A stretch of DNA of 59,788 nt from an archaeon (GTDB lineage: Archaea > Nanobdellota > Nanobdellia > Pacearchaeales > GW2011-AR1), in NCBI GenBank assembly GCA_043821945.1, contig JBDRCH010000011.1, positions 1 through 59,788 on the forward strand, in the 5' to 3' direction. Positions 11,347 through 29,183 of the stretch are shown here, piece after piece (the stretch's first letter is position 1; the number at the start of each line of letters is the position of its first letter). Under the pieces are notes generated by a model. The model was not told the DNA's origin, searched no databases, and saw only the letters and a program-made list of their open reading frames with translations. Made by a program: the position numbers and the translations under genes.

Positions 11347-11466
11347 ATTTGGGCTTGTCTTTGAACAACTTTTAATCGAACTTTTTAAAATTCTGATTAA
11401 TTAAAACTTTATCTATTTTATTTTAGGAAGACGTTTTTATTCCCAAGAACTAAAACTTCCTCCTCC

Positions 11467-12906: not shown

Positions 12907-12908
12907 TT

Positions 12909-13148
12909 TCAAATTGAAAAAGTGCAAAGCACTTTATCAGGATATTTAATTCCTCTGAAATATTTACATATAGAAGTATCTTTAATAGCACATTGATGTT
13001 TTGTAGTGTTGTCTTCTTTATTCCAAGGACATTCATCTTGTTTCCAATCAACATCCTCTCTAGAAACTAAGTCTATATCCATAGCACCTCTCAATTCAGT
13101 TATTTTATTATTATCCATTTTATTTATTTTCTCGACTTGGGAGAGCAT
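12909..13148 (-). CDS. Cys-containing orphan protein (79 aa) between uL15 and secY
   Basis: ORF on the same strand as its neighbours, separated by 2-nt gaps. Four Cys residues (DECPW, HQCAI, SICKYF, VLCTF). Confidence 0.5.
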   Translation of the reverse strand: MLSQVEKINKMDNNKITELRGAMDIDLVSREDVDWKQDECPWNKEDNTTKHQCAIKDTSICKYFRGIKYPDKVLCTFSI

Positions 13149-13150
13149 AG

Positions 13151-13690
13151 TTATTTCTTGATAATTTTTTCTTCCCCCTTAGCAACCTTCTTACTCTTTT
13201 TTACAACCTTTTCCTTAACTTCTTTTTCAAATTTCTTTTTTTCACTAAATTTTACTTCTTTTTTAATAGGAAGTATAATCTCTCCACCTACTTTCTCAAT
13301 CTTTTTTCTTGCACTTGCAGAAGCTTCTTTGGCTTTTATAATTAACTTCTTTGAAATTTCACCTTCTCCGAGAATTTTATAATCTGAGAGATCAATTTGA
13401 CCATTTTTATTTTGATATTTTTCTAAATTTAATTCAATGTCTTTTAGATTGATTTTCTTTCTTGTATCTCTTTTTGTTCCTCTGCTTGTAATTCCTTGTT
13501 TTCCAAAATAGTTATGACCATATTTCTTATTAACAAGTGTCTTTTTTTGATCTGCTCTCTTTCCACTTCCAGACATTCCAACTCCTCCTCTATGCCCAGA
13601 ACCTTTTCGTTTTTTACGAGCTCCGCCTCCATGAGTGCCTCTTCCATGACCATGCATCCTTGTTGATTTTTTTCTTTTTTTTAATTTCAT
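13151..13690 (-). CDS. rpl15: Ribosomal protein uL15 with Lys-rich C-terminal extension
   Basis: N-terminal RMHGHGRGTHGGGARKKRKGSGHRGGVGMSGSGKR. The tail is EKKKFEKEVKEKVVKKSKKVAKGEEKIIKK. Confidence 0.9.
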   Translation of the reverse strand: MKLKKRKKSTRMHGHGRGTHGGGARKKRKGSGHRGGVGMSGSGKRADQKKTLVNKKYGHNYFGKQGITSRGTKRDTRKKINLKDIELNLEKYQNKNGQIDLSDYKILGEGEISKKLIIKAKEASASARKKIEKVGGEIILPIKKEVKFSEKKKFEKEVKEKVVKKSKKVAKGEEKIIKK

Positions 13691-13878
13691 TTTAGCTCCA
13701 TTTTAGTTGAACCTTCAAGTAAAGAAGATAATTGGTTAGGACTAACATACCTTTTTTCAATGGGTTTAGAGGTTCCCTTGATATTCTCAAAAATATTTAC
13801 AATAGCAGTCCCATTAGTGTTTCTTTTAACATCTAATATTTTATATGCTCCCTTCAAATAAAATTCCGATTTTTCCAT
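13687..13878 (-). CDS. Orphan protein (63 aa) between uL30 and uL15
   Basis: ORF with a 4-nt ATGA overlap on the uL15 start and a 1-nt gap after the uL30 stop. Confidence 0.5.
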   Translation of the reverse strand: MEKSEFYLKGAYKILDVKRNTNGTAIVNIFENIKGTSKPIEKRYVSPNQLSSLLEGSTKMELK

Positions 13879-13879
13879 C

Positions 13880-14242
13880 TTACAACATCCTCCGAATTAA
13901 TTCATTTATTTTATCTTTATGGTTTCCTAAAACTCCTTTATTAACTCCAAAATGTTTTTTACTTTCAATTCCTCCTCGGGGTGGATGAAGCCTGAAAAAT
14001 GGTTTTAATTTTCCCTGAGTATCTTTTTTTCCGCGCTTTTCAACAAGTTCTTTATAAGTTGCTTCATCAATCTCACCATATGCAACAAAATCCTTAATTT
14101 TCTTAATCATTCCTAATTGCTCTTTTGTTGGCTTATCAAAAACAACACAAGAATATTTTCTTCTTAATCTCAATCTATAAAGAGTTTCAACTATTGGTTT
14201 TTTTAACTTCACTTGTCCGTGTATTCTAATTACTGCTTCCAT
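13880..14242 (-). CDS. rpl30: Ribosomal protein uL30
   Basis: AVIRIHGQVKLKKPIVETLYRLRLRRKYSCVVF. Operon position is consistent. Confidence 0.9.
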   Translation of the reverse strand: MEAVIRIHGQVKLKKPIVETLYRLRLRRKYSCVVFDKPTKEQLGMIKKIKDFVAYGEIDEATYKELVEKRGKKDTQGKLKPFFRLHPPRGGIESKKHFGVNKGVLGNHKDKINELIRRML

Positions 14243-15048
14243 TCCCTTTCCTCCATCCTATTTGTTTGCTCAAGTGCATTAATACAAGCTTTTATTAAAT
14301 TAAAAGTTGTTCGCTTATGTCCAAATGTCTTTGTGTAAACATCTTTGATTCCTGCCATTTTCAAAACTTTTCTTGTTTCTGATCCAGCAACTATTCCAGT
14401 TCCTTGAGGCGCAGGTGTCAAGACTATTCTGACGCTTCCTGCCTTACCCATAATTTTGAATGGAATTGAATGAAGTTCTGAACAAGCACAATCAAAACTA
14501 CTGCAAGCTCTTTTAATTTTGATAACATTCAATTTTGCTTTTCTTATTGCTTTATCTCTTGCAGGAAGAGTTTCTTTTGCTTTTCCATTTCCAATACCAA
14601 TATGTCCATTTTCATCACCAACAATTGCAAGTGTTGAAAAAGAAGGAACATTGCCTTCTTTTGTTTTTCTCTGAGTCTGTCTCCAAGCTCTTCTTTTCCC
14701 TCCACCAAATTTACCTTTTGATTGCCCAATTGAAATTAAATCAGATTTTGTATCAATCAAGAAATCTACAATCTCTGGTTCGAGAATTTTCTTTTTAGAA
14801 TCTAAAATTTCATCAATATTTTTAATTTTCCCGTCCTTGACTTCTCTTCCAAGCTTAGTTTTTGGTTCCCATCCAATTAAAATTTCTTTTTCATCATTTT
14901 TTGGTGCAGGGGTTTTGCCATTAATTCTATTTTCTGTCTCTTCTTTCATCTTTTCCAAGTCTTCTAAATCAGATTCATCTAAAACTTCCTCTGGAACTTC
15001 TGCATATTCATCAATTTGTTCTTCTTGATTTATTTTTTCTTCACTCAT
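14230..15048 (-). CDS. rps5: Ribosomal protein uS5 with acidic N-terminal extension
   Basis: Core GKFGGGKRRAWRQTQ...VGDENGHIGIGNGKAKE...GTGIVAG. It is preceded by about 60 aa of E/D-rich sequence. Confidence 0.9.
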   Translation of the reverse strand: MSEEKINQEEQIDEYAEVPEEVLDESDLEDLEKMKEETENRINGKTPAPKNDEKEILIGWEPKTKLGREVKDGKIKNIDEILDSKKKILEPEIVDFLIDTKSDLISIGQSKGKFGGGKRRAWRQTQRKTKEGNVPSFSTLAIVGDENGHIGIGNGKAKETLPARDKAIRKAKLNVIKIKRACSSFDCACSELHSIPFKIMGKAGSVRIVLTPAPQGTGIVAGSETRKVLKMAGIKDVYTKTFGHKRTTFNLIKACINALEQTNRMEEREWKQ

Positions 15049-15566
15049 TTTAGTCCCTCTATTTTGGATTTAATTTCATCAAATGAAATTTTCTCCTTGA
15101 GATTTTCTCCTTGAATCTTTTTCTCATCTGGAAATGTTTCTTGAATTGTTTTTATTTCAATCCCCGAGTCAACAAGTCCTTTTAAAAATCCAAAGACCTT
15201 TGTCTTATGAAGTGCTCTTAACATTCCAAAATCCACAATAGGAGTATCTAAATTTTTCTGAATAATTTTCTTTCCAAATAATAAACCTGTAAAATATGCT
15301 GCAGATATTGATTTGAGACTGCTTTTATTTTTTTCAGGCCAACCATGTTTCAATAATTCTTTCGAACTGATCCCAAAAATAACTTTGTCTCTTGCTTCCT
15401 CACTTTTGACATATTGAACAATAAAATATCTATTGGTTCTTCTAAAAACAATCCTAGGCTTCTCACTTTTGAGCAATTTAATTCTCTTCCCATAATCTGT
15501 CTTATGGTCTTTTTTCCTTTTTTTTAATGTTCTTAAGGATTTTTTAGCTTTCATTGTCTTTTCCAT
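15045..15566 (-). CDS. rpl18: Ribosomal protein uL18
   Basis: RIVFRRTNRYFIVQYV...AAYFTGLL. Operon position is consistent. Confidence 0.85.
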   Translation of the reverse strand: MEKTMKAKKSLRTLKKRKKDHKTDYGKRIKLLKSEKPRIVFRRTNRYFIVQYVKSEEARDKVIFGISSKELLKHGWPEKNKSSLKSISAAYFTGLLFGKKIIQKNLDTPIVDFGMLRALHKTKVFGFLKGLVDSGIEIKTIQETFPDEKKIQGENLKEKISFDEIKSKIEGLK

Positions 15567-16021
15567 TCCTGATTTATCTTGGTCATAATCTTAATAAGAT
15601 CTTTTTTAAATTCATTGTTCCAAAAATTAACACAATAATCAATGAATTCAGCTTCTTTTTCATTCTCTTTTGTCAAGCTCATTAAACTATTCTTACTGGT
15701 GACAACCATAACTTTTTTCATTAATTCTGTGATTTCTTTTTTTTCTTCAGAATCAAATATTCTGCTTTCACTTAAATTCAAAATATTCTGAGGATTAGGC
15801 ATAATTAAACTATGAAGATAATTACTCCATGCAACATAAAGTTCAGTCATTCTTGAACGCAACTGTCTCGACAAATTTTCGCTCACAAAACCCTCTCTTA
15901 AAATATAGTCCTTAATGAAAAATATTTTATCAATCTCTTCAAGATTAGAAGAAAAACCTAATTCTTGTTTAAGATTGTTAAATTTCTCCTTAAAATAATT
16001 AATTAATTCCTGATTTTTCAT
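15551..16021 (-). CDS. Orphan, apparently helical protein (156 aa) between eL19 and uL18
   Basis: ORF overlaps the eL19 stop by 4 nt and the uL18 start by 16 nt. No recognisable motif. Confidence 0.55.
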   Translation of the reverse strand: MKNQELINYFKEKFNNLKQELGFSSNLEEIDKIFFIKDYILREGFVSENLSRQLRSRMTELYVAWSNYLHSLIMPNPQNILNLSESRIFDSEEKKEITELMKKVMVVTSKNSLMSLTKENEKEAEFIDYCVNFWNNEFKKDLIKIMTKINQEWKRQ

Positions 16022-16425
16022 AATCTCAACCCTCCAATATATTCTTTTAAGTTTGCTTTGCTCTTGAATTTTTTATTTCTTATTCTCTTTCTAATTTCAA
16101 TAACTTCTTCCCTTGATAATTCTCCTTTCTTTTTTAAATCAGAAACATATCCTCTAAGTTTTCTTGTCATAATAATATAGTCTCTTTTTCTGGTGTTGAT
16201 CTTCTTCTTTATCTTACCGACTCCTCTTTTTCTTTTTCTCTTTTGAATCTTTTTTCTTCCTTTAATTTCTTTAACAATTATGGCGCCATCTTCCTTTAAT
16301 TCACGGATATCTTGTTTTGTAAGTGCTTCTTTAATATCATTTAATCTCGATTTTAGAAAAACAATTCTATCTTTCCCTACTTTTAATGTTCTTACTGCTA
16401 AATATTTTTTCTTGCCTAAATTCAT
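16018..16425 (-). CDS. rpl19e: Ribosomal protein eL19
   Basis: LGKKKYLAVRTLKVGKDRIVF...RGYVSDLKKKG; highly basic. Operon position is consistent. Confidence 0.85.
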   Translation of the reverse strand: MNLGKKKYLAVRTLKVGKDRIVFLKSRLNDIKEALTKQDIRELKEDGAIIVKEIKGRKKIQKRKRKRGVGKIKKKINTRKRDYIIMTRKLRGYVSDLKKKGELSREEVIEIRKRIRNKKFKSKANLKEYIGGLRL

Positions 16426-16907
16426 TTTTTATTCTCCTTAGATTTTTCTTGAGAATTTTCTTTAATATTTTCATCTTTCTTTATTTTATTTTTTGCTTTT
16501 TCAGACTTTTCTTTTTCTATTTTATCTTCTTTAGCTTTTTTCTGTATCTCAATCTTCTTCAAAAATCTTTTGATATTAACATTTGAGACTATAATCTTTT
16601 TTTCTTGAGCTTTTTTTAGGATTTCAATTTTTTTCTTTTTTCCAACACTTGTTATGATCGCAATATTATTTTTTTTGATTTTTTCTAAATCTTTAATATT
16701 GCTAACTAAAATAGGAATTTTTTCTTTAACCCGGTCTTTAATTTTTTTGTCACTACTATAGCCAATACTTACCACAGCAGGATAACCTTTTCTTTTCTCT
16801 CTCATTTTGTTATCTCTCCCTTTTGGACTTCTCCAAACTTGTTTTTTCTTTCTGCCTTTCCCTAGTTTCACATATCTGCTCCAAGTTCGTCTTAGGAATT
16901 TTACCAT
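16422..16907 (-). CDS. rpl32e: Ribosomal protein eL32 with K/E-rich C-terminal extension
   Basis: FLRRTWSRYVKLGKGRKKKQVWRSPKGRDNKMR. The tail is KAKEDKIEKEKSEKAKNKIKKDENIKENSQEKSKENKK. Confidence 0.85.
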   Translation of the reverse strand: MVKFLRRTWSRYVKLGKGRKKKQVWRSPKGRDNKMREKRKGYPAVVSIGYSSDKKIKDRVKEKIPILVSNIKDLEKIKKNNIAIITSVGKKKKIEILKKAQEKKIIVSNVNIKRFLKKIEIQKKAKEDKIEKEKSEKAKNKIKKDENIKENSQEKSKENKK

Positions 16908-17449
16908 TATATTTCCCTCCCTGCTTTACTTATCATAAAAATTCCATCTTGGAAAACTCTTCTGTCTTTCATTTTTATTTTTGTGGCTTCTTCAAAATTT
17001 GCTGCTGTCTGACCTGCTAACTCCTTGTTTGTTGAAATAATTGTTATAAAAGGACCATCAATTTTAACTTCTGTTTCCTTAATAATCTTAACTTTCCTTG
17101 GAACTTTCTCTCCTAAAAAATTCTTTATAATAGCTTCATTCCCCTTAATATCAATTGTTATTGGAAAATGATTAAAGCAAATTTTTAATTTATACTCAAA
17201 TTTTTCTTGCACTCCTTTAATCAAGTTTCTAATATGTGCAGAAATGGTGTTTATCATTTTTTTTTCATTTTTTGTGGCTTTTTTATTTCCGATAATTAAT
17301 TTATCCCCTTTTTTTTCAAAATCCAATCCTCCAATATTTAATTCTTTTTTATTTTCTCCTTCGTCGCCTTTAACTGTCAAGAGATTTCCTTCTAAATTAA
17401 CTTCCACTCCTTTTGGGATTTCAATTTCTTGGATTATTTCCTTTTTCAT
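16907..17449 (-). CDS. rpl6: Ribosomal protein uL6
   Basis: Two-domain uL6 pattern (IEIPKGVEVNLEGNLLTVKG...KLKICFNHFPI...). Operon position is consistent. Confidence 0.9.
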   Translation of the reverse strand: MKKEIIQEIEIPKGVEVNLEGNLLTVKGDEGENKKELNIGGLDFEKKGDKLIIGNKKATKNEKKMINTISAHIRNLIKGVQEKFEYKLKICFNHFPITIDIKGNEAIIKNFLGEKVPRKVKIIKETEVKIDGPFITIISTNKELAGQTAANFEEATKIKMKDRRVFQDGIFMISKAGREI

Positions 17450-17450
17450 T

Positions 17451-17831
17451 TTAATAAAAATATGCTATTAGGCTTCCCCCTATTTTTTCTTCTTGAGCTT
17501 CTTCATGAGTCATTAATCCTTTGTTTGTAGATATGATCATTATTCCCAAATTTCTTGCAGGAAGATATCTTCTTCTATATTTTTCAATCTGATCTAGATC
17601 GCAGCTAAATCTCGGTTTGATTGCCTTGCATCCAAAAAATTCTCCGAGGGTGATCTTTAGCGATTTTTCTTTGCTATTAATCTTGTATTTTTTTACAGCT
17701 CCTTCTTGTTTCATTATTTTCAAAACTTCGATTAATAAATTTGAAATTCTTTTTACATTAATTATTTCTTTTCTTGCTCTCTTAGCATTTCTCATCATGT
17801 TTAGTGCATCAGCAACTACATCTTGTGACAT
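17451..17831 (-). CDS. rps8: Ribosomal protein uS8
   Basis: DVVADALNMMRNAKRARK...GIMIISTNKGLMTHEEA...GGSLIAYFY. Confidence 0.9.
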   Translation of the reverse strand: MSQDVVADALNMMRNAKRARKEIINVKRISNLLIEVLKIMKQEGAVKKYKINSKEKSLKITLGEFFGCKAIKPRFSCDLDQIEKYRRRYLPARNLGIMIISTNKGLMTHEEAQEEKIGGSLIAYFY

Positions 17832-17832
17832 T

Positions 17833-18063
17833 TTAACTATATTTTTTAAAGCCGATTTCTTCTGCTATTTCTCTAAAGCATTGTCGGCATAAATTTAATC
17901 CATATGAACTTATGTGTGCACCAAATCTTCCGCATTTCTCACATTTTTGCACAGCTATTCCAATTTTCCTTTCTTTGGGCTTATTATGTTTAATGAATTT
18001 ATTCATCACAGCTGGCTTTTTCTTCAACTGCTTTAATATTTTTTTCCAATCACTTGCTGTCAT
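17833..18063 (-). CDS. rps14: Ribosomal protein uS14 (zinc type)
   Basis: CEKCGRFGAHISSYGLNLCRQCFRE. 76 aa, with a somewhat long basic N-terminus. Confidence 0.85.
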   Translation of the reverse strand: MTASDWKKILKQLKKKPAVMNKFIKHNKPKERKIGIAVQKCEKCGRFGAHISSYGLNLCRQCFREIAEEIGFKKYS

Positions 18064-18064
18064 T

Positions 18065-18577
18065 TTATCTAAACTCCACTTGGAAATTATCTTCCATGAA
18101 TTTAATTATTTCTTCTTTACTAATTACTTGTCGCTTTGGAATTCTGTTTCTCTTGATCTTCCTTAATTTAACTCTTCTTCCAGATCTTTTAAATACAACT
18201 GTAACATCAAATCCTCGAATTCCAATATCTCTTTGATATTCCACTCCAGGAATTTCAAGATATTCTTTTATTCCAAATGAAAAATTATTCTCGCTGATTT
18301 GTTTCTTTTTCAATGCCTTGTCAATTGTGATTAACATCTTTTTTAGAAATTCTTTTGAATTTTTTCTTATTGTTATAACTGCTCCTATCTCTAAACCTGG
18401 TCTAATCCCTAAGGTAGGAATTCTCTTTTTAGACTTCATCCTAGAAGCTTTTCTTCCAGGAACCAAAAACTCTAATAGTTTAACACCTTTTTCTAAATCT
18501 TCTCCAATTCCCCCCGCACTTATAACAACTTTCTCTATTTTTATTTCTCTCATTGGGTTTTGTTTTTGTTCAATCAT
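18065..18577 (-). CDS. rpl5: Ribosomal protein uL5
   Basis: NPMREIKIEKVVISAGG...FSFGIKEYLEIPGVEYQRDIGIRGFDVTV. Confidence 0.9.
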   Translation of the reverse strand: MIEQKQNPMREIKIEKVVISAGGIGEDLEKGVKLLEFLVPGRKASRMKSKKRIPTLGIRPGLEIGAVITIRKNSKEFLKKMLITIDKALKKKQISENNFSFGIKEYLEIPGVEYQRDIGIRGFDVTVVFKRSGRRVKLRKIKRNRIPKRQVISKEEIIKFMEDNFQVEFR

Positions 18578-18578
18578 T

Positions 18579-19229
18579 TTATTCCACCACCATAATCTGT
18601 TTAATTAAAACATTTATATCTTTTCCACTAACTTCAATACTCACCATTTTTCTTTCAGATTTTATTTTTTTTATAATCCCCTTTTTACCTGCGTGTTTGC
18701 CTGCAAAGATAATAATCTTAGATTTTTCCTTTAAGGGAAGAACTTTCTCAATTTTTCTGTCTTTAAAGTTAATTAAAACAGAATCATTAACATTACATTT
18801 CGAATCAGAAATAAAATTTACACCATAACCCAAATTAATTTGCTGTTTTTTACCTCTTAATGTTTTTTTATCAACAACTTTAGCTACTTTCATATTTGCT
18901 TCGCTCTCTTTAATTTCTTCAAGCCCGAATTTTCCATAATTATTTAATACAATTCTATAATTTTTCTTTGAAGGTATAATCTTTATAACATCCATTAAAA
19001 CTGCAGATTTTTTCTCATCTCGAATAAACTTATTATTATGCAAAACATTTTTTTCATGAATTGCTCTTTTTGCTTCTTTTCTATTTCGCGCAATTTTCAG
19101 AATATCCCTAAGTATGATTAGTATAGGAAGCCCCTTATTCGCACTAAAGTTAGGTCTAACTACAAAAGTCGTGCCTTTTCTTTTTATTGGCCAATTCTTT
19201 GGAACTTCTTGTCTTTTTAGGTGTGCCAT
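18579..19229 (-). CDS. rps4e: Ribosomal protein eS4
   Basis: Likely start is MAHLKRQEVPKNWPIKRKG (ATG 19229); the track start at 19256 overlaps the upstream gene. A KOW-like region is present. Confidence 0.85.
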   Translation of the reverse strand: MAHLKRQEVPKNWPIKRKGTTFVVRPNFSANKGLPILIILRDILKIARNRKEAKRAIHEKNVLHNNKFIRDEKKSAVLMDVIKIIPSKKNYRIVLNNYGKFGLEEIKESEANMKVAKVVDKKTLRGKKQQINLGYGVNFISDSKCNVNDSVLINFKDRKIEKVLPLKEKSKIIIFAGKHAGKKGIIKKIKSERKMVSIEVSGKDINVLIKQIMVVE

Positions 19230-19236
19230 TTTATTT

Positions 19237-20129: not shown

Positions 20130-20131
20130 TT

Positions 20132-21179: not shown

Positions 21180-21475
21180 TCGCTTATGGATTTTTCATCA
21201 AACCCATGTTTGACCAGCATTCCCTTGATCTTTTTTCTGTGGTCTCCTTGGAGTTCAATTGAATTATCTTTGTAAGTCCCACCACAAGCCAGCTCATTTT
21301 TCAGAGCTTTTGTGATTTTCTTTACATCAATTCCGCTCTCAAATCCTGTGACAAGAGTAACGATTTTTCCATATCGTTTTTTGTCTGTTGTCACTTTTAT
21401 TTTCTGCGAACTTTTCACAATCTGTTCACACACACAGGCCTGCTCAGGCAAGCCACATTTTGGACATATTTCCAT
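21176..21475 (-). CDS. eif1: Translation initiation factor SUI1/aIF1
   Basis: Likely start is MEICPKCGLPEQACVCE (ATG 21475, directly after the uL29 stop). SUI1 core KRYGKIVTLVTGF...LACGGTYKDNSIELQGDHRKKI. Confidence 0.85.
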   Translation of the reverse strand: MEICPKCGLPEQACVCEQIVKSSQKIKVTTDKKRYGKIVTLVTGFESGIDVKKITKALKNELACGGTYKDNSIELQGDHRKKIKGMLVKHGFDEKSISE

Positions 21476-21476
21476 G

Positions 21477-21659
21477 TTATTTATCTTGTTCAACTCCCTT
21501 CTTATCAAGGTTGTTGAATGTGTGTATTCTTGCAATCATCTTTCTAATCTGTTTTGTTTTTGAACTTCCTGGCTTTGACTTAATTAATTCCATTTTTAGG
21601 TCTTTTAATTTCTTTTCCCTATCTGCTTTACTTAATTTTTGAATATCTTTTGATTTCAT
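21477..21659 (-). CDS. rpl29: Ribosomal protein uL29
   Basis: MKSKDIQKLSKADREKKLKDLKMELIKSK...IRKMIARIHT. Confidence 0.85.
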   Translation of the reverse strand: MKSKDIQKLSKADREKKLKDLKMELIKSKPGSSKTKQIRKMIARIHTFNNLDKKGVEQDK

Positions 21660-22474
21660 TTTCCTCTCTCCTCACTTTTAACTTCTTCACTTAAATTGGC
21701 TTCACCTTGTGGCTCATGATTTTTTTCATTAACTTTTACATCTCCTGAAGCATCATCTTCAGCTATTTTCTCTTCAACTTCTTCTTTAATTTTCTTTTTC
21801 ACAGTTTTTTTCTTAGTTGTTTCTTTCAATCCCTTAATCAATTTCTCAGATTCAGAACCTTCTTTTAATTTTGTTAACATTTCTTCATCAATTGTTATTC
21901 TATCTTTTAATATAGCATGAGGGGAAAGTATACTAACTTTTATTCCAACTGTTCCTGGTTTTGTTTCTGCTCTTGCTTTTGCTCTATTAACAACTTTTGC
22001 ACTGTCCCCTGTTTTTTTTAAATAACCTTGTGCAAATCTCCATGGTTTGGCCCTTTTTCCAGGAAGTTTTCCATTCAATCTTATTTCCACCCCAAGAGCT
22101 CCGGCATTAATAATTCTCTGAAGAGTTTTATATGCAATAACTTTAAATCTAATAGGACCAAATCTTTCTAAAGCAAGTGCAATGTCATCTGCCATTACTT
22201 GTGCATCAAACTCTGGTTTTTTTATTTCTTCAATTTCAATGCTCAGGTTTTCAAGTTTAAACCGACTTTTTAATACTTTTGTCAATTCCTCTATTTTTTC
22301 TCCTTTTCTTCCAATAACTAATCCAGGTTTGTGTGTAGAAATAATTATCTTTTCTCCAACAGGGGTATATTGAATCTTCACATCGCTGATTTTTCCTTTT
22401 CCAAGTGATTTTTTAATATATTCTCTAACTGCAAATTCTCTTTTCTTTGCTTTAACTACTTCTCTTTCTTCCAT
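21656..22474 (-). CDS. rps3: Ribosomal protein uS3 with K/E-rich C-terminal extension
   Basis: KH domain (VIGRKGEKIEELTKVLK) plus the uS3 C-domain. About 60 aa of charged tail. Confidence 0.9.
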   Translation of the reverse strand: MEEREVVKAKKREFAVREYIKKSLGKGKISDVKIQYTPVGEKIIISTHKPGLVIGRKGEKIEELTKVLKSRFKLENLSIEIEEIKKPEFDAQVMADDIALALERFGPIRFKVIAYKTLQRIINAGALGVEIRLNGKLPGKRAKPWRFAQGYLKKTGDSAKVVNRAKARAETKPGTVGIKVSILSPHAILKDRITIDEEMLTKLKEGSESEKLIKGLKETTKKKTVKKKIKEEVEEKIAEDDASGDVKVNEKNHEPQGEANLSEEVKSEERGK

Positions 22475-22519
22475 ATTAATTTATTTCCTCCAATTCTAAT
22501 TTAATTGTTTTTTCTTCCA

Positions 22520-23161
22520 TTATTTTTTCTCCTTAATTTTTTTATTTAATTTATTGATAGCTTTTTTTTCTCTGGCTTTAATTGTGATATGAGTTCGTTT
22601 TTTTCGCACTCTCCCGAATTTCCCATAAGGTCTTTCACCAATGTTGGCAATCGCTTCAGTAATCACAGGATTTTCAACATCGTGATTCTCTGCATTTGAT
22701 TTCAAACTTTTCAAGATTCTAATAAAATTTTCAGAAGCTCTTTTTGGAAATCTTCCTGACATTATTTTTCCTTTTCTGTGAGGAATTTCTCCTTTCATAG
22801 GCACAGCTTTTTTCAATAAAATAACTTGTTCTAAATCATCAATTGCTTTATCAATTTTTTTATATTTAATAAATTTACAAATATCTCTTGAATATTTTGT
22901 TGATATTGGAACATTGCTGATATTAACACTCACTTCTGTTTTCTTAACTTTGGCTCTTTTTACAATTGTTTTTTTCTTTTCTTTTGATTCAGTTTCCTCT
23001 GATTTTTCTAACTTCTCAGTTTCTTTAGATTCAGAAGTTTTAGTCTCAGAAAGAATTTTCTTTTGAATTGACTTTTGGGCAACAGCTTGTTTTTTTGGTT
23101 TTTCAATTATTCCTTCTTGTTTTTTTTGTGCAATTGTCGTTGGTTTTTCTGTGTTTGGCAT
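22520..23161 (-). CDS. rpl22: Ribosomal protein uL22 with about 80-aa K/E/S-rich N-terminal extension
   Basis: Likely start is MPNTEKP (ATG 23161, just after the uS19 stop at 23163). Core ISTKYSRDICKFIKYKKIDKAIDDLEQV...HITIKAREK. Confidence 0.85.
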   Translation of the reverse strand: MPNTEKPTTIAQKKQEGIIEKPKKQAVAQKSIQKKILSETKTSESKETEKLEKSEETESKEKKKTIVKRAKVKKTEVSVNISNVPISTKYSRDICKFIKYKKIDKAIDDLEQVILLKKAVPMKGEIPHRKGKIMSGRFPKRASENFIRILKSLKSNAENHDVENPVITEAIANIGERPYGKFGRVRKKRTHITIKAREKKAINKLNKKIKEKK

Positions 23162-23162
23162 T

Positions 23163-23561
23163 TTATTTTTTACTCTTATGTTTACTTCCTTTAGTTGCTC
23201 CAACACCTGCTTTACTATGCTTGATTCTTGCACGAGTTGGCGCGAATTCCCCAAAAGTGTGACCCAGTTTTTCACCAGTCACTTCACAAGGAACAAATTT
23301 ATTTCCATTATAAATAAATATTTTCCATCCAATCATTGTAGGAACAACAACCAAATCTCTGGAATGTGTTTTTATTGCTTTGTTTTTTTGAATCTTGATC
23401 TTAGATCTATTGATAAAATTCTCTATTTTTTGAAAATTTCTAAGAAGAGTTCTTCTCTGTCTTGATCGCAAAAATTCTGCAAACCCTCTTACATCTAACT
23501 TGTTTAATTCTTCAATTGTTTTTCCTTTATAAGTGAATTCTTTTTTTGTTAGTTCTTCCAT
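23163..23561 (-). CDS. rps19: Ribosomal protein uS19
   Basis: HSRDLVVVPTMIGWKIFIYNGNKFVPCEVTGEKLGHTFGEFAPTR. Confidence 0.92.
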   Translation of the reverse strand: MEELTKKEFTYKGKTIEELNKLDVRGFAEFLRSRQRRTLLRNFQKIENFINRSKIKIQKNKAIKTHSRDLVVVPTMIGWKIFIYNGNKFVPCEVTGEKLGHTFGEFAPTRARIKHSKAGVGATKGSKHKSKK

Positions 23562-23562
23562 T

Positions 23563-24255
23563 TTATTTTTTCTTTCCTGTTCTTCTTGGCCTTAACAATC
23601 CTACTCTTCTTCCAGGTGGAGCATTTCTCTTTGCAATCTTGCTCTTTGGATTCTTTGAACGGCCAGATCCAAAAGGATGATCAATTGCATTCATCTTCAC
23701 AGCTGAAGTTCTCGGCCATAATTTACTTTTTGATTTTTTCATATGATATTTTTTCCCTGCTTTGATAATTGGCTTGTCTAATCTTCCTGCACCAGCAATA
23801 ATTCCAATAGAAGCTCTACAATTTTTATGAAACTTCTTTTCCTTTTTTGAAGGCATCACAACAAATATATGATCTCCAATAACTTTATTAATCATAGCCG
23901 AATTACCTGCACTCTTAATAAAAACCCCTCCATCTCCAGGTCTTGATTCAATATTGTTAATTCTTGTTTTCAAAGGAATATCTTTTAATTTCAAAATACT
24001 CCCTTTTTCAAATTTATCAAAACTAATTTTTTGCCCTTCATACATTCCTTTGAATGCAGGAATATAAAAACTTCCTTTTGGATATTTTATCTTTGCTAAA
24101 GGCGCAGTATGTGCACTTGAATTAAATAACTTAACAACAATCCCTTCTCCTGAAAGTTGCTTAGGATATTGCAACTTATATCTAAACGCTTTCTTCTTTA
24201 CTCTATAAGTGTGCGTTCCTCGTCCTCGTCTTTGTGTTATTATTCTCTTTCCCAT
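23563..24255 (-). CDS. rpl2: Ribosomal protein uL2
   Basis: SRPGDGGVFIKSAGNSA...WPRTSAVKMNAIDHPFGSGR. Confidence 0.95.
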   Translation of the reverse strand: MGKRIITQRRGRGTHTYRVKKKAFRYKLQYPKQLSGEGIVVKLFNSSAHTAPLAKIKYPKGSFYIPAFKGMYEGQKISFDKFEKGSILKLKDIPLKTRINNIESRPGDGGVFIKSAGNSAMINKVIGDHIFVVMPSKKEKKFHKNCRASIGIIAGAGRLDKPIIKAGKKYHMKKSKSKLWPRTSAVKMNAIDHPFGSGRSKNPKSKIAKRNAPPGRRVGLLRPRRTGKKK

Positions 24256-24256
24256 T

Positions 24257-24499
24257 TTACATCAATCCTAATTTTGTAGCTACATCAATAGCTGGAAATT
24301 CCTTTTTTAATTTAACATAAACGTATTTCTTATTTCCTTTAATTAATGTTCTAATTCTCTCAACCTTCAGTTTAAATAATTCTTCAATTTCTTTTTTAAT
24401 ATCTTCTTTAGTCTCATTCATACTAGTTACAAATTTCAAAACATTTGCAAGTTCAATCATCATAACTGCTTTTTCAGTTACTATTGGTTTTAGTTTCAT
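24257..24499 (-). CDS. rpl23: Ribosomal protein uL23
   Basis: PIVTEKAVMMIELANVLKFVTSMNETKEDIKKEIEELFKLKVERI. Confidence 0.9.
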   Translation of the reverse strand: MKLKPIVTEKAVMMIELANVLKFVTSMNETKEDIKKEIEELFKLKVERIRTLIKGNKKYVYVKLKKEFPAIDVATKLGLM

Positions 24500-24687
24500 T
24501 TTGTTTCCCCACTATATTTTTTTCTAATTCTCATTTCATCTTCTAAATTAATAGCTAAGGGGTATTTTTTAGTCAATTCTTCTTTTGTCCCTATGCTTTT
24601 GACTTTTCCCTCTCCGCATAATAAATATATCTTTTCACCTTCAGGTGTTGTTCTTACCGGATAAATCATTGGTTCTCCCTCATTCAT
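24496..24687 (-). CDS. Orphan protein (63 aa) coupled to the exonuclease and uL23
   Basis: ORF with 4-nt overlaps on both sides. No motif recognised. Confidence 0.5.
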   Translation of the reverse strand: MNEGEPMIYPVRTTPEGEKIYLLCGEGKVKSIGTKEELTKKYPLAINLEDEMRIRKKYSGETK

Positions 24688-25331
24688 TTTCTCAAAACCT
24701 CCGGCATTTCAAATTTAGCAAATTCTGAAAATAAATTCTTTCCAAATACTAATCTATTAAAACACTCACCAGTTAATTTAGCATCTTCTAAAGCATTGTG
24801 GGGTTTACCTTCTTTTTCAACTTCGTTCCCATCTAAAATTATTCTATTGTCTTTTATTCCACAAAATTCTAAAACTTTATGCAATCCCATGTCCCCTCTT
24901 CCATCTTCTTTAATTGCAAAATCTCCCTTGGTTTCTAAATGTTCTAATTGAGCAATAGAATAAGTATCTAACCCCTTGTATCCAATTGTTTTTATGAATT
25001 GATTAGAGATTTCATATCTGCTACATTTATTTTGTAAGATATTAAAATCCCATCCAATATTATGCCCAATAATAATTCTATCCTTACATCTTTTAGCCCA
25101 TTCTAAAAAATTCAATATTAATTGTTTTTGAGATTGTTTATTTGAGTTTCTCATTTCTTCTTCTGATCTTCCTGTAATTTTTATTGCCCCTTCTTCAACT
25201 AAATCTTCATCATCAATTCTTGATTCTTCTAAAAATTGGTTTTCAGGATTTTCAATTTCAAATGCACCAATTTGCCAAATTCCACATTTTCCAGTATCAA
25301 CTCCACTTGATTCAATATCTAAGACTATCAT
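24684..25331 (-). CDS. DEDDh 3'-5' exonuclease (DnaQ/RNase T superfamily) embedded between uL4 and uL23
   Basis: Exo I MIVLDIESSG (DxE), Exo II IIGHNIGWDFNIL, Exo III HNALEDAKLTGECF (Hx4D). 4-nt overlap with the uL4 stop. Confidence 0.8.
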   Translation of the reverse strand: MIVLDIESSGVDTGKCGIWQIGAFEIENPENQFLEESRIDDEDLVEEGAIKITGRSEEEMRNSNKQSQKQLILNFLEWAKRCKDRIIIGHNIGWDFNILQNKCSRYEISNQFIKTIGYKGLDTYSIAQLEHLETKGDFAIKEDGRGDMGLHKVLEFCGIKDNRIILDGNEVEKEGKPHNALEDAKLTGECFNRLVFGKNLFSEFAKFEMPEVLRK

Positions 25332-26122
25332 TTCAACTTCTCCCTCAAATTTTTAATTGCATCTTCAGTATAAACAGTTAATCTTCCTACGCCACCTTTT
25401 GCTAAGTCATTAATATTCAATTCCTTAACTTTGACAATATCAAAAGCATTTGATTTTAACTTTTCTTCATTTCCAATAACAATTAATAATCCTGCATTAT
25501 TCTTATATTTTCTTCCTCGAAGTTTTCCAATTCCTGCCCTAACACTTTTCTTCTTCAAGGCTAATTTGAATAATTTTTTGCCTAAGATATTCTTCAAACT
25601 ATTAATCAAATCCTTTATCTTTAAGGAACTCAATTTAGATTCAACAACAAAAGGAACATTTTTTTCTAATCTATCAAGACTTTCATATTTCTTTACAATT
25701 TTCTTGTTATCAGCTGTTGCACTAATTGCAGAAATTAAAGCAATTTTCATTTCTTTTTTATTTATCTTTAATGTGTTCAACATTGAAATTGATTTTGGAG
25801 GATGAGCTCTTCTACCCCCCCGAGTATTAGGAACTGTTGCGCCTTCTACTCTAAACTGAGATCCTTTTCTTGAAAATATTTTTCTAGGAATTCTTGACCA
25901 ACCTCTTCCATACTGGGACTTCCAAACATGTCTCCGATGATTCCATTTACCACTTGCAGAAGCCTGATTTCCTGCTATAGGCGAAGAACCATAAGGCTGT
26001 TTAACTTTTTTTGCTTCTATTACCTTAGCAACAATATCTTCACGAATTTCTGAAGAAAAACATTTAGGCAAATCAATATCTCCTTTTTCTTTTCCATTTA
26101 TATCAAGTATTTTTGTTTTCAT
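25328..26122 (-). CDS. rpl4: Ribosomal protein uL4
   Basis: SASGKWNHRRHVWKSQYGRGWSRIPRK...RGGRRAHPPK...IGKLRGRKYK. Confidence 0.9.
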   Translation of the reverse strand: MKTKILDINGKEKGDIDLPKCFSSEIREDIVAKVIEAKKVKQPYGSSPIAGNQASASGKWNHRRHVWKSQYGRGWSRIPRKIFSRKGSQFRVEGATVPNTRGGRRAHPPKSISMLNTLKINKKEMKIALISAISATADNKKIVKKYESLDRLEKNVPFVVESKLSSLKIKDLINSLKNILGKKLFKLALKKKSVRAGIGKLRGRKYKNNAGLLIVIGNEEKLKSNAFDIVKVKELNINDLAKGGVGRLTVYTEDAIKNLREKLK

Positions 26123-26140
26123 TTCAAAATCTCCACCGAC

Positions 26141-26395
26141 TCACATTGTATGTTTTTGACCACAAATACCATAATTAGGAGTAAACCCTCCCTCTAATTC
26201 AATAGAGTCATTTTCTTTAAGATGATATGTTCTTAGATTATCAATAGTTGCTCCAGGGGAAGTTTTACCTTTTATAATTAATTTATCCTGAAAGATAAAT
26301 TTTACAATTCCTTCAAAATCTCCTATAGTAATTTCTTCTTCAATTTCAAATTCATCTAATTTTCTTATCATAGCTTTTTCAAAATTCAGATTCAT
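26141..26395 (-). CDS. Orphan protein (84 aa) between uL3 and uL4
   Basis: ORF with a 4-nt overlap on the uL3 stop. Beta-rich appearance and no motif recognised. Confidence 0.5.
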   Translation of the reverse strand: MNLNFEKAMIRKLDEFEIEEEITIGDFEGIVKFIFQDKLIIKGKTSPGATIDNLRTYHLKENDSIELEGGFTPNYGICGQKHTM

Positions 26396-27333
26396 TTCAA
26401 AACCTCCAGTAACTCAAAATTCTTTTTTGCTTGTTTTTTAGTTTCTCTTAAAGGAGCAGTAATTAACAATTGTCTTTTTGCAGGACCTTGCACAGATCCC
26501 CTAACTAAAACATAATCTGTTTTAACCACACCAAAATTCTTAATGTTCTTGAATTCCCTGTCAGTTGATTTTCCTAAATCAATTATCTTATTATTATAAA
26601 CCACTCTTGTGAATGTTCCAAGTTGGCCGGCCATAGGAACCCTGAATATAACTCTAGCAGGATGCCAAGGACCAAGACTTCCAGGTCGTCTTCGGCCTTT
26701 TTCAGATTTATGGAACTTTAATTTTATCCCAAATCTTTTAACAGGTCCTTGAGTTCCCTTGCCTTTTGTTAAACCCCTCATATCAACTAATTGCCCTTTT
26801 TCAAAAACATCTAAAACAGAAATTTCTTTGTTCAAATGCTCTTTCACAAAATTTAATTTATCTTCAACACTTCCTGCAAGTCCAATCTCACTTAAATCAG
26901 GAGTTTTCTTTATATTAGTTTTCTTAACTTGTGAATAACATATTACAGAAACATCATCATAATCTTTAACACTCTCAATTCCAGCCCCTTTCTTTTTTGG
27001 AAATTTAATTTTCTTTTTTAATTCTTTATCTAAATTATCTAATAAAATATCTTGCATAACTTTTCCATCTTTATAGAATCGCACACAAAATATTTTGAGT
27101 GTTGGACACTCAAGAATTGTTATAGGTACAGTAATTTTTTTACCCTTTGTCATTGAATTTGGAGTATCATCTTTAACCTTTACAGAACCCATACCAGCTT
27201 TGTAACAAATAAATCCCTTAAGATTTTTTCCAGAATCAATTGCATTCCAGTTTACTCTAGGTAAAAACTTAGCAATTCGCTTTCTCGGCCAGAACTGCAG
27301 ACTTCCTTTTCTTGGTGATTTTCTTGTTGGCAT
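26392..27333 (-). CDS. rpl3: Ribosomal protein uL3
   Basis: PRKGSLQFWPRKR...GLTKGKGTQGPVKRFGIKLKFHKSEKGRRRPGSLGPWHP. Confidence 0.95.
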   Translation of the reverse strand: MPTRKSPRKGSLQFWPRKRIAKFLPRVNWNAIDSGKNLKGFICYKAGMGSVKVKDDTPNSMTKGKKITVPITILECPTLKIFCVRFYKDGKVMQDILLDNLDKELKKKIKFPKKKGAGIESVKDYDDVSVICYSQVKKTNIKKTPDLSEIGLAGSVEDKLNFVKEHLNKEISVLDVFEKGQLVDMRGLTKGKGTQGPVKRFGIKLKFHKSEKGRRRPGSLGPWHPARVIFRVPMAGQLGTFTRVVYNNKIIDLGKSTDREFKNIKNFGVVKTDYVLVRGSVQGPAKRQLLITAPLRETKKQAKKNFELLEVLK

Positions 27334-29101: not shown

Positions 29102-29183
29102 AACCCAAAACAGAAACAACCCTTTTTAAGAATTTCTATAATAACTAAATTTTTAAAAAGATTTAAATCTCTAAGAGGTTAAA

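What the first reader, a model, noticed from the sequence alone, without database searches (positions are those of the whole stretch)
12909..27333. Universal ribosomal-protein superoperon interrupted at seven positions by eight translationally coupled orphan genes
The gene order read from the sequence is: uL3-[84 aa]-uL4-[DEDDh exonuclease]-[63 aa]-uL23-uL2-uS19-uL22-uS3-uL29-SUI1-uS17-[88 aa]-uL14-uL24-[131 aa HExxH]-eS4-uL5-uS14-uS8-uL6-eL32-eL19-[156 aa]-uL18-uS5-uL30-[63 aa]-uL15-[79 aa Cys-rich]-SecY. In described archaea this is among the most rigidly conserved gene strings, and as far as I recall only SUI1 and RNase P Rpp29 normally intervene. Every insert here is on the operon strand. 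Five overlap at least one neighbouring gene by 4-16 nt, the HExxH gene shares 1 nt with the uL24 stop, and the other two sit within 1-2 nt of their neighbours. They are therefore almost certainly co-transcribed and co-translated with ribosomal proteins. That makes them candidates for lineage-specific ribosomal proteins, ribosome-associated factors or maturation enzymes. Rpp29 is not at its usual position between SUI1 and uS17.
Basis: partly seen in the sequence, partly recalled or inferred. Interest (0 to 1): 0.82.

Follow-up and report, generated by a model that had tools for sequence, protein, structure and literature searches.

The report
Variable passenger genes in ribosomal operon
A tiny-genome (Pacearchaeota-type) archaeon carries eight real extra genes wedged between its ribosomal-protein genes. 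Comparison with about 100 related operons shows this is a clade-wide habit of gaining and losing assorted small genes there, not a fixed set of new ribosomal proteins, though three of the eight recur in the same slot in other lineages.

Summary
On the minus strand (27333 to 11467) lies a complete archaeal S10-spc string, uL3 through SecY. It carries eight extra same-strand ORFs in seven junctions, each overlapping a neighbour or lying within 18 nt of it.

All eight look like real genes. Each scores best in its annotated frame with the genome's own codon usage, and 7 of 8 have a GGAGG-like ribosome-binding site.

In about 100 related operons, 137 extra ORFs occupy 12.5% of 1096 junctions, from 0 to 10 per operon. 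They cluster in hot slots, and most are unrelated orphans plus assorted enzymes such as MazG, GNAT and HAD. Some families sit in different slots in different genomes. The closest relative shares only one of the eight inserts.

- **Singletons:** four inserts (84, 63, 88 and 63 aa) have no detectable relative.
- **Charge:** seven of the eight are acidic or neutral, unlike the basic r-proteins.
- **DEDDh exonuclease:** 427 homologs, always inside translation operons.
- **156-aa helical protein:** 36 homologs, dN/dS 0.05, no match to any solved or predicted viral structure searched.
- **131-aa HExxH protein:** always between uL24 and eS4.

These last three are the credible candidates for translation-linked factors.

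The parts
11467..27333 (-). Complete archaeal S10-spc ribosomal-protein superoperon (uL3 to SecY): 23 r-protein genes, SUI1, SecY and 8 inserts.
   Evidence: ORF list; Pfam. The order is syntenic with about 100 related loci.
26141..26395 (-). ins84: 84-aa orphan between uL3 and uL4. pI 4.9; ATGA overlap with uL3; perfect GGAGG 7 nt upstream.
   Evidence: No hit in Pfam, NCBIfam or PHROGs. No tblastn hit at E<1 in 93 loci. Singleton cluster. Coding score 0.48 bits/codon, best of six frames. Binding site.
24684..25331 (-). DEDDh215: DnaQ/RNase T-type DEDDh 3'-5' exonuclease between uL4 and uL23, with 4-nt overlaps on both sides.
   Evidence: PF00929, 46 bits. 427 homologs. D5/E7/D95/H178/D183 are 99-100% conserved in 120 members. 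Same slot in L006, L027-29, L032, L066, L073, L074, L098/99 and L102/103. Sits between eS27 and eIF2-alpha in L100/L101.
24496..24687 (-). ins63a: 63-aa orphan between DEDDh215 and uL23. pI 7.8; 4-nt overlaps on both sides; perfect GGAGG.
   Evidence: No family hits. No homolog in 93 loci. Relatives with the DEDDh gene go straight to uL23. Singleton. Coding score 0.52.
20530..20796 (-). ins88: 88-aa orphan between uS17 and uL14, which is the old S10/spc boundary and a hot slot. pI 6.7; 4-nt overlaps on both sides.
   Evidence: No credible family hit. No homolog. 34% of relatives have an ORF in this slot, but of unrelated sequence. Singleton. Coding score 0.25, best frame.
19237..19632 (-). HExxH131: 131-aa putative minimal gluzincin-like metallopeptidase between uL24 and eS4 (H56, E57, H60 and invariant E79).
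   Evidence: An exhaustive search of 1.84 billion representatives finds only 3 real homologs at 28-35% identity. P0040 and P0042 both lie between uL24 and eS4, as does the copy in L057. AF2 pLDDT 89.4. Best Foldseek matches are zincins, all weak: PprI/IrrE E 0.099, SPRTN, M61, selecase. phrog_87 metallo-protease E 6e-4.
15551..16021 (-). ins156: 156-aa all-helical protein of an unnamed, conserved family between eL19 and uL18. Motif W..YLHSLIMPNPQNILN; pI 6.6.
   Evidence: 36 homologs at 28-68% identity, 142-164 aa. Sits between eL19 and uL18 in L045, L049, L069, L083-86 and L089-93. Sits between uL3 and uL4 in L012 and outside any r-protein operon in L087/88. dN/dS 0.048. AF2 pLDDT 94.8, 7 helices. 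No match in PDB or BFVD or to PDB sequences.
13687..13878 (-). ins63b: 63-aa orphan between uL30 and uL15, the hottest slot. It is the only basic insert (pI 9.5). Perfect GGAGG.
   Evidence: No family hit. No homolog. 44% of relatives have an ORF here, from more than 10 unrelated families including MazG. Singleton.
12909..13148 (-). ins79cys: 79-aa four-cysteine protein between uL15 and SecY (69 aa if it starts at Met11). No SD-like site.
   Evidence: 64% identical homolog in the same slot in L006, with all four Cys conserved. Absent from the 34 other loci that cover the slot. Coding score 0.27, best frame.

Best explanation
The window comes from a Pacearchaeota-type DPANN archaeon. In this clade the S10-spc superoperon is not rigid. 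It is a long, co-directional transcription unit whose cistron junctions repeatedly gain and lose small passenger genes.

Inferred mechanism: an inserted ORF with its own Shine-Dalgarno-like site (as 7 of the 8 inserts and 13 of the 24 canonical cistrons have), or a start/stop overlap, can be translated by re-initiation without polar damage to downstream r-protein genes. It also inherits constitutive expression without needing a promoter.

The eight inserts are a mixture of two classes.
- **Retained genes.** The DEDDh exonuclease, the ins156 helical protein, the HExxH mini-metallopeptidase and probably the Cys4 protein recur in the same slot in other lineages. The first three are therefore likely to act in translation or in ribosome, rRNA or r-protein maturation. 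They would do so as soluble factors or enzymes, not as structural r-proteins.
- **Young or very fast-evolving orphans.** ins84, ins63a, ins88 and ins63b are restricted to this lineage. Their function, if any, need have nothing to do with the ribosome.

Shown: gene reality, positions, distribution, turnover, and selection on ins156. Inferred: co-transcription, translational coupling and any biochemical role.
For: - **Clade-wide flux.** 137 extra same-strand ORFs of at least 50 aa occupy 1096 canonical junctions (12.5%), from 0 to 10 per operon. Hot slots are uL30~uL15 44%, uS17~uL14 34%, uL4~uL23 28%, eL19~uL18 27% (inflated, because loci L083-L093 were fetched through ins156 homologs), uL23~uL2 25%, uL3~uL4 23% and uL14~uL24 22%. 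Cold slots are the three junctions from uS3 through uS17 at 0% and eS4~uL5 at 0%.
- **Heterogeneous content.** Only a minority of the 103 distinct gap ORFs hit Pfam; the hits are MazG x3, winged helix x3, GNAT, HAD, metallo-beta-lactamase, M23 and DUF5680.
- **Slot changes.** Five families, plus ins156, occur in two different slots. ins156 also occurs outside the operon.
- **Fast turnover.** L098, with r-proteins 61-89% identical, shares only the DEDDh gene and has 5 other inserts.
- **Fast sequence evolution.** The insert shared by L043 and L065 has dN 0.30, dS 0.32, ratio 0.92. The 21 flanking genes (19 r-proteins, SUI1, SecY) have ratios of 0.03-0.23.
- **Native genes.** All eight score best in the annotated frame, and their GC3 matches their neighbours. 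SD-like sites occur in 7 of 8 against a 15% background.
- **Retained subset.** DEDDh has 427 homologs, an intact catalytic pentad and two independent translation-operon contexts. ins156 has dN/dS 0.048 and is the only insert in otherwise clean operons such as L089. HExxH homologs at only 28-33% identity still lie between uL24 and eS4.
- **Not structural r-proteins.** Seven of eight inserts have pI 4.9-7.8, against 8.8-11 for r-proteins.
- **Not confined to this operon.** L098 has two extra ORFs between uL10 and P1. The window has a VIT1-like gene between EMC3 and prefoldin that relatives lack.
Against: - No transcript or protein data exist, so co-transcription and translation are inferred from geometry and SD-like sites only.
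- The nearest relative is still about 25% diverged in r-proteins. Fast-evolving but slot-conserved genes could look like orphans, as HExxH131 at 28-35% identity shows. Some same-slot inserts may be undetected homologs.
- I did not measure insertion density in other conserved syntenic blocks. Whether the r-protein operon is especially permissive, or simply reflects genome-wide orphan flux, is open.
- No insertion mechanism was identified (no repeats).
- The set of relatives is partly biased. Loci L083-L093 were fetched through ins156 homologs and L098-L103 through DEDDh homologs.
Confidence: 0.62

Rival explanations
1. One reading: all eight inserts are lineage-specific ribosomal proteins or dedicated ribosome-associated or maturation factors, held in the operon to match r-protein stoichiometry.
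For: Same strand, start/stop overlaps and SD-like sites. Slot conservation for DEDDh, ins156, HExxH131 and ins79cys. ins156 is as constrained as eL19. The DEDDh gene sits in a second translation operon, eS27-eIF2alpha.
Against: Four of the eight have no homolog anywhere searched. The closest relative lacks seven of the eight. The slots hold unrelated proteins in other genomes. Seven of the eight are acidic or neutral. ins156 is patchy among relatives and also occurs outside the operon. No insert matches any r-protein Pfam family.
Confidence: 0.12
2. The inserts are cargo of mobile or selfish elements, or defence or anti-defence genes, that target the conserved operon as a safe and highly expressed landing site.
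For: The same families sit in different slots. Gene types common on mobile elements appear among relatives' inserts: MazG, GNAT, wHTH, and a weakly ImmA/IrrE-like HExxH protein. The DEDDh gene in L066 is 71% identical to the window's while the flanking r-proteins are only 62% identical. That discordance hints at lateral exchange.
Against: No flanking direct or inverted repeats. No integrase or transposase among the Pfam hits of the gap ORFs. Codon usage and GC3 are native. PHROGs hits exist only for the generic exonuclease, plus one weak hit for HExxH. The PADLOC defence library was not searched.
Confidence: 0.12
3. The small orphans are non-functional: chance or decaying ORFs in expanded intergenic spacers, or over-annotation.
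For: They are singletons. A comparable insert in relatives evolves near-neutrally (dN/dS 0.92). ins79cys lacks an SD-like site.
Against: All eight have a positive coding score in the correct frame, within the range of the r-protein genes. All four orphans have SD-like sites, three of them a perfect GGAGG. The ORFs fill the gaps exactly, with ATGA overlaps. Open frames of 63-88 codons are improbable at 29% G+C (my estimate, about 0.005 or less).
Confidence: 0.1
4. Assembly artefact: a chimeric contig that brings foreign genes into the operon.
For: None was found.
Against: Composition is uniform. Every junction is syntenic with independent assemblies from many projects. Four inserts are found in the same slots in those assemblies.
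Confidence: 0.02

Closest known systems
Canonical archaeal S10-spc r-protein gene cluster with its known non-ribosomal passengers (SUI1/aIF1, RNase P Rpp29, SecY, adenylate kinase)
   Same: The order of all 23 r-protein genes, SUI1 and SecY is the same. Non-ribosomal genes riding in the operon are a known principle (established knowledge).
   Different: There are eight further passengers here. In this clade the passengers vary between genomes in identity and slot, occupying 12.5% of junctions. Rpp29 is absent from the cluster. Four literature searches of the held library found no description of this.
DEDDh (DnaQ-like / RNase T, PF00929) 3'-5' exonucleases
   Same: DEDDh215 passes the Pfam cut-off and has all five catalytic residues. 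The nearest solved sequences are the PolC exonuclease domain, DnaQ and Cas2-DEDDh.
   Different: It is a stand-alone protein of about 215 aa embedded in translation operons (uL4~uL23, or eS27~eIF2alpha). It reaches no NCBIfam equivalog cut-off. Its substrate, RNA or DNA, is unknown.
Minimal zincin or gluzincin metallopeptidases (minigluzincins such as selecase; the ImmA/IrrE/PprI COG2856 domain; SprT/SPRTN)
   Same: HExxH131 has HExxH on a helix that follows a three-stranded sheet, plus an invariant Glu 19 residues after the second His, which is gluzincin-like spacing. The top fold matches are all zincins.
   Different: All matches are below significance (Foldseek E at least 0.099; phrog_87 6e-4; no Pfam hit). 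One homolog has HEIIE instead of HExxH. The family has only about 4 members among 1.84 billion representatives.
Phage 'morons', and de novo or orphan genes riding on read-through expression from host transcription units
   Same: Small, fast-evolving, taxonomically restricted ORFs are inserted between conserved genes of one transcription unit. Their presence is variable and the neighbours are not disrupted.
   Different: These sit in a cellular core operon, not a virus. No autonomous promoter or terminator signals were assessed. This is an analogy only.

Membership tests
Archaeal S10-spc ribosomal-protein superoperon | Canonical co-directional order uL3-uL4-uL23-uL2-uS19-uL22-uS3-uL29-(SUI1)-uS17-uL14-uL24-eS4-uL5-uS14-uS8-uL6-eL32-eL19-uL18-uS5-uL30-uL15-SecY | tested here: met
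   Pfam assignment of every gene. Coordinates.
Archaeal S10-spc ribosomal-protein superoperon | RNase P Rpp29 between uL29/SUI1 and uS17 (common, not universal) | tested here: not met
   There is no ORF in that junction here or in any of 48 relatives. No insert hits an Rpp29 model.
DEDDh exonuclease (PF00929 RNase_T / DnaQ-like) | Profile match above the curated cut-off | tested here: met
   46 bits against a cut-off of 24, over residues 2-189.
DEDDh exonuclease (PF00929 RNase_T / DnaQ-like) | Catalytic pentad: Exo I DxE, Exo II D, Exo III Hx4D | tested here: met
   D5, E7, D95, H178 and D183 are present and 99-100% conserved in 120 homologs.
DEDDh exonuclease (PF00929 RNase_T / DnaQ-like) | 3'-5' exonuclease activity, and substrate (RNA or DNA) | not testable with these tools
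   Needs a biochemical assay.
Zincin / gluzincin metallopeptidase (for HExxH131) | HExxH motif on an active-site helix | tested here: met
   H56-E57-A-G-H60 lies in predicted helix 47-59. The motif is conserved in 4 of 5 members; P0041 has HEIIE.
Zincin / gluzincin metallopeptidase (for HExxH131) | Third zinc ligand (Glu) about 20 residues downstream on the next helix | tested here: inconclusive
   The invariant E79 lies in helix 72-92, 19 residues after H60. The pattern fits, but metal binding was not shown.
Zincin / gluzincin metallopeptidase (for HExxH131) | Significant profile or fold match to a known peptidase family | tested here: not met
   No Pfam peptidase family. NCBIfam M3 scores 17 bits against a cut-off of 442. 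phrog_87 E 6e-4. Best Foldseek match is PprI at E 0.099, TM 0.33.
Structural ribosomal protein (for all eight inserts) | Match to a known r-protein family | tested here: not met
   No r-protein model is hit by any insert in Pfam or NCBIfam.
Structural ribosomal protein (for all eight inserts) | Strongly basic, RNA-binding composition, as for the other r-proteins of this genome | tested here: not met
   The inserts have pI 4.9-7.8, apart from ins63b at 9.5. The r-proteins have pI 8.8-11. Acidic r-proteins do exist, so this is indicative only.
Structural ribosomal protein (for all eight inserts) | Conserved presence across the lineage | tested here: not met
   Four are singletons. The others are patchy: DEDDh in 8 of 29 loci, HExxH in 1 of about 77 tblastn-screened loci (3 further homologs by exhaustive search), and ins79cys in 1 of 35.
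Structural ribosomal protein (for all eight inserts) | Physical presence in purified ribosomes | not testable with these tools
   Needs proteomics or cryo-EM.
Mobile element / insertion cassette | Terminal repeats, target-site duplications, or an integrase or transposase | tested here: not met
   Only low-complexity AT-rich imperfect repeats are present. No recombinase domains appear among the inserts or among the Pfam hits of 103 gap ORFs.

The most novel reading that the evidence does not exclude
In Pacearchaeota-type DPANN archaea the universal r-protein superoperon acts as a gene nursery. Small ORFs are continually born or captured at permissive cistron junctions and are immediately expressed at ribosomal levels. 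A few are then domesticated as slot-fixed, lineage-specific translation factors. Candidates are the ins156 helical family, which matches no solved or predicted viral structure searched; a minimal gluzincin fixed between uL24 and eS4; and a DEDDh exonuclease that may trim rRNA or tRNA 3' ends.
Probability: 0.3. Interest if true: 0.75.

Novelty: new variant of a known kind. Interest (0 to 1): 0.55.

Why it matters
The S10-spc cluster is the textbook example of frozen gene order, and it is the backbone of phylogenomic marker sets. A whole clade that tolerates, and rapidly turns over, up to ten extra cistrons inside it changes that picture in three ways.

- It shows that the constraint on this operon is junction-specific. 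Some junctions are never broken, while others are occupied in 25-44% of genomes.
- It offers a natural system for studying orphan-gene birth and fixation under guaranteed high expression.
- It yields three concrete, conserved, uncharacterised proteins whose persistent embedding in translation operons makes their function directly testable.

It also matters in practice. Inserted ORFs can confuse synteny-based binning and annotation of DPANN genomes.

Tried and rejected
- **Concatenated query.** I searched the seven orphans joined by X linkers. It returned nothing, even for ins156, which has 36 homologs on its own.
- **A displaced Rpp29.** I considered that ins84 or ins88 might be Rpp29 moved out of place. 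Neither hits a profile even at E<1, and the gene called uS17 really is uS17.
- **A split uL30.** I considered that ins63b might be a frameshifted C-terminal piece of uL30, because uL30 is 120 aa here and 140-144 aa in some relatives. ins63b has no tblastn similarity at E<1 to any relative's locus in any frame. L086 also pairs a 120-aa uL30 with an unrelated 84-aa insert.
- **Hidden homology within a slot.** phmmer of the window inserts against 155 gap ORFs gave nothing below E 0.03, and no enrichment for the same slot.
- **Fold of ins156.** Searches against PDB and BFVD returned only generic helical bundles (E at least 0.47; best TM 0.47). A profile search against PDB sequences found nothing.
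- **Repeats and transposon signatures.** None were found.
- **Rfam.** Only two tRNAs, both outside the operon.
- **dN/dS.** Only one ins156 pair was close enough to be informative, and no DEDDh pair was.
- **Literature.** Four searches and two papers checked found no prior description. This covers the held library only.

Full report
**1. What is in the window**

The region 11467-27333 is a single minus-strand gene string. G+C is uniformly low at 0.28-0.32, and GC skew is strongly negative. Pfam identifies every expected member of the archaeal S10-spc cluster in canonical order, plus SUI1 and SecY.

Eight further ORFs lie on the same strand in seven junctions:

| Insert | Coordinates | Junction |
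|---|---|---|
| ins84 | 26141-26395 | uL3~uL4 |
| DEDDh215 | 24684-25331 | uL4~uL23 |
| ins63a | 24496-24687 | uL4~uL23 |
| ins88 | 20530-20796 | uS17~uL14 |
| HExxH131 | 19237-19632 | uL24~eS4 |
| ins156 | 15551-16021 | eL19~uL18 |
| ins63b | 13687-13878 | uL30~uL15 |
| ins79cys | 12909-13148 | uL15~SecY |

Six overlap a neighbour by 4-16 nt. HExxH131 shares 1 nt with the uL24 stop. ins79cys lies 2 nt from each neighbour.

**2. Are the inserts real genes?**

I trained a codon model on 17 long ORFs elsewhere in the window. With it, each insert scores highest in its annotated frame out of six. The scores are 0.21-0.52 bits/codon, inside the range of the r-protein genes at 0.13-0.57. GC3 matches the neighbours.

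Seven of the eight have GGAGG with at most one mismatch 7-11 nt upstream of the ATG, and four of these are perfect. Only 15% of random operon positions and 13 of 24 canonical genes have such a site. The four orphan sequences are present, with identical boundaries, in the public protein collection under an NCBI source, so another pipeline called them too. Spurious ORFs and assembly chimeras are thus unlikely.

**3. Who is the organism?**

The nearest named relatives of the eS4, ins156 and DEDDh proteins are 'Candidatus Pacearchaeota archaeon' and 'Nanoarchaeota archaeon' MAGs. No close relative exists in the collections. The best r-protein identities are about 70-77%.

**4. Comparative test**

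Using eS4 as a neutral probe I fetched one Pacearchaeota genome locus (L001) and 80 metagenome loci. I fetched 21 more through homologs of ins156, HExxH131 and DEDDh.

tblastn of all 32 window proteins gave these results:
- DEDDh215 has homologs in 8 of 29 loci that cover uL4~uL23, always in that slot.
- ins156 has homologs between eL19 and uL18 in many loci, once between uL3 and uL4 (L012).
- HExxH131 has one homolog at 30% identity, between uL24 and eS4 (L057).
- ins79cys has one at 64% identity, between uL15 and SecY (L006).
- ins84, ins63a, ins88 and ins63b have no hit even at E<1 in 93 loci.

More telling, the relatives have extra ORFs of their own:
- **Frequency.** 137 ORFs of at least 50 aa sit in 1096 junctions (12.5%), from 0 per operon (L056, L076, L079) to 10 (L032).
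- **Hot slots.** uL30~uL15 44%, uS17~uL14 34%, uL4~uL23 28%, eL19~uL18 27% (inflated, because loci L083-L093 were fetched through ins156 homologs), uL23~uL2 25%, uL3~uL4 23% and uL14~uL24 22%.
- **Cold slots.** The three junctions from uS3 through uS17, and eS4~uL5, are never broken.

Six of the window's seven occupied junctions rank among the eight most frequently occupied slots (12-44%); uL24~eS4 is rarely occupied (5%).

**5. What are the relatives' inserts?**

Clustering shows mostly singletons. Only a minority of the 103 distinct ORFs hit Pfam. The hits are a miscellany: MazG x3, winged-helix x3, GNAT, HAD, metallo-beta-lactamase, M23 peptidase, DUF5680 and metallophosphoesterase. One locus adds an NTPase_I-T.

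Five families, plus ins156, appear in different slots in different genomes:
- a wHTH family (uL14~uL24 and eL19~uL18);
- a MazG family (eL32~eL19 and uL30~uL15);
- three unnamed families;
- ins156, which also occurs outside any r-protein operon in L087/88.

The closest relative, L098 (r-proteins 61-89% identical), shares only the DEDDh gene. It carries five unrelated inserts at uS17~uL14, uL14~uL24, uL5~uS14, uS8~uL6 and eL32~eL19. It also has two between uL10 and P1 in another r-protein operon.

Where two fairly close genomes share an orphan-type insert, it evolves far faster than its neighbours. In the L043/L065 pair, where r-proteins are 87% identical, the shared insert has dN 0.30, dS 0.32 and a ratio of 0.92. 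The 21 flanking genes (19 r-proteins, SUI1, SecY) have ratios of 0.03-0.23. This is one short gene, so the estimate is rough.

**6. The three retained inserts**

- **DEDDh215.** It is a bona fide DEDDh exonuclease: PF00929 at 46 bits, with the D5/E7/D95/H178/D183 pentad 99-100% conserved in 120 homologs. It has 427 homologs at E<=1e-10. In every context examined it sits inside a translation operon. That is uL4~uL23 in at least twelve loci, including otherwise insert-free operons (L102), and eS27~eIF2alpha-aS21-EF1beta in a 710-kb Pacearchaeota genome. Two independent translation contexts make a role in RNA 3'-end processing for the translation apparatus the best guess. This is an inference; DNA proofreading is not excluded. 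L066's copy is 71% identical to the window's while its flanking r-proteins are only 62% identical, which hints at some lateral exchange.
- **ins156.** It defines an unnamed family of 36 homologs, 142-164 aa long, with an almost invariant W..YLHSLIMPNPQNILN segment. Its identity to the window tracks that of the flanking eL19 and uL18. The one informative pair gives dN/dS 0.048, against 0.06 for eL19. AlphaFold2 gives a very confident seven-helix model at pLDDT 94.8. That model has no meaningful match in PDB or BFVD. Its distribution among relatives is patchy, and its pI is 6.6.
- **HExxH131.** An exhaustive HMMER search of 1.84 billion representatives finds only three real homologs at 28-35% identity; a fourth hit is a repetitive junk protein. 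The two whose contigs I could read lie exactly between uL24 and eS4, as does L057's copy. The model (pLDDT 89.4) is a three-stranded sheet followed by the HExxH helix and three more helices. An invariant Glu lies 19 residues after the second His. The best fold matches are all zincins (PprI/IrrE, SPRTN, M61, selecase), but none is significant.

ins79cys keeps its four cysteines in the L006 homolog, and that homolog suggests a start at Met11.

**7. Interpretation**

The data fit a model in which this clade's superoperon tolerates insertion at particular junctions, and passengers come and go quickly. Each cistron that has its own SD-like site or start/stop overlap would allow this without polar effects; that step is inferred.

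The eight inserts split into two classes:
- a retained class, made up of DEDDh215, ins156 and HExxH131, and perhaps ins79cys;
- an orphan class, made up of ins84, ins63a, ins88 and ins63b.

The pI values argue against structural r-proteins. Seven of the eight inserts have pI 4.9-7.8, whereas every r-protein has pI 8.8-11. No transposon-like repeats flank the inserts.

The same behaviour is visible just outside the r-protein string. The window has a VIT1-like ORF between EMC3 and prefoldin that relatives lack. So I cannot say whether the operon is specially permissive or merely shares a genome-wide orphan flux.

**8. Novelty**

Non-ribosomal passengers in this cluster are known. Frequent, variable, multi-slot insertion in a whole clade is not described in anything I could find in the held library. 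I rate it a new variant of a known kind, with three concrete uncharacterised conserved families as by-products.

**9. Limits**

- There are no expression data.
- No relative is closer than about 75% r-protein identity.
- Part of the locus set was fetched through the inserts themselves.
- One protein search was wasted.

Noticed in passing
window 10771-11466: A 696-nt stretch between SecY and the EMC3/TMCO1-like gene has no ORF on the operon strand. Relatives have about 30 nt here. The opposite strand carries a 56-aa hydrophobic ORF at 11072-11242.
   Followed up: partly
window 9752-10225 (-): A 157-aa VIT1-family ORF sits between the EMC3/TMCO1-like gene (10225-10770) and prefoldin (9292-9717). 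Relatives L089-L091 have EMC3 directly followed by prefoldin. This is another insertion in a conserved string, outside the r-protein genes.
   Followed up: partly
window 27434-28258 and 28289-29119 (-): Two tandem paralogous ORFs of about 275 aa lie immediately upstream of uL3. Each has only a weak PHP_C hit. Relatives have other genes here (SecE/FtsZ in L098).
   Followed up: no
window 22520-23275 (-): uL22 carries a long Lys/Glu-rich N-terminal extension. The uL22 domain begins only at about residue 120 of the 251-aa ORF, and the likely ATG start gives about 213 aa. Relatives also have uL22 of 202-239 aa. uS3, uL24, eL32 and uL15 have similar charged C-terminal tails.
   Followed up: partly
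L098 195-880 (-): In the closest relative, two orphan ORFs (124 and 102 aa) lie between uL10 and the P1 stalk protein gene. The insertion habit therefore extends to the L1-L10-P1 operon.
   Followed up: partly
L083 2164-2697; L084; L085: An NTPase_I-T (inosine/xanthosine triphosphatase family) gene follows the ins156 homolog between eL19 and uL18. Together with the three MazG inserts elsewhere, nucleotide house-cleaning enzymes recur among the passengers.
   Followed up: no
L066 520-1167, compared with window 24684-25331: The DEDDh gene of L066 is 71% identical to the window's, although its flanking uL4, uL23 and uL2 are only 62% identical. Loci with flanks 70-73% identical have DEDDh only 44-49% identical. 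This suggests lateral exchange of the insert into the same slot, or two paralogous lineages.
   Followed up: partly
P0039 (hit): A 3802-aa 'protein' made of tandem repeats of about 90 aa matched residues 43-81 of HExxH131 twelve times. It looks like a translated DNA repeat array and was disregarded as spurious.
   Followed up: no
window 33158-33238 (-) and 46449-46521 (+): tRNA-Ser(TGA) and tRNA-Pro(TGG) are the only Rfam or ARAGORN hits in the window. There is no rRNA and no r-protein leader element.
   Followed up: yes
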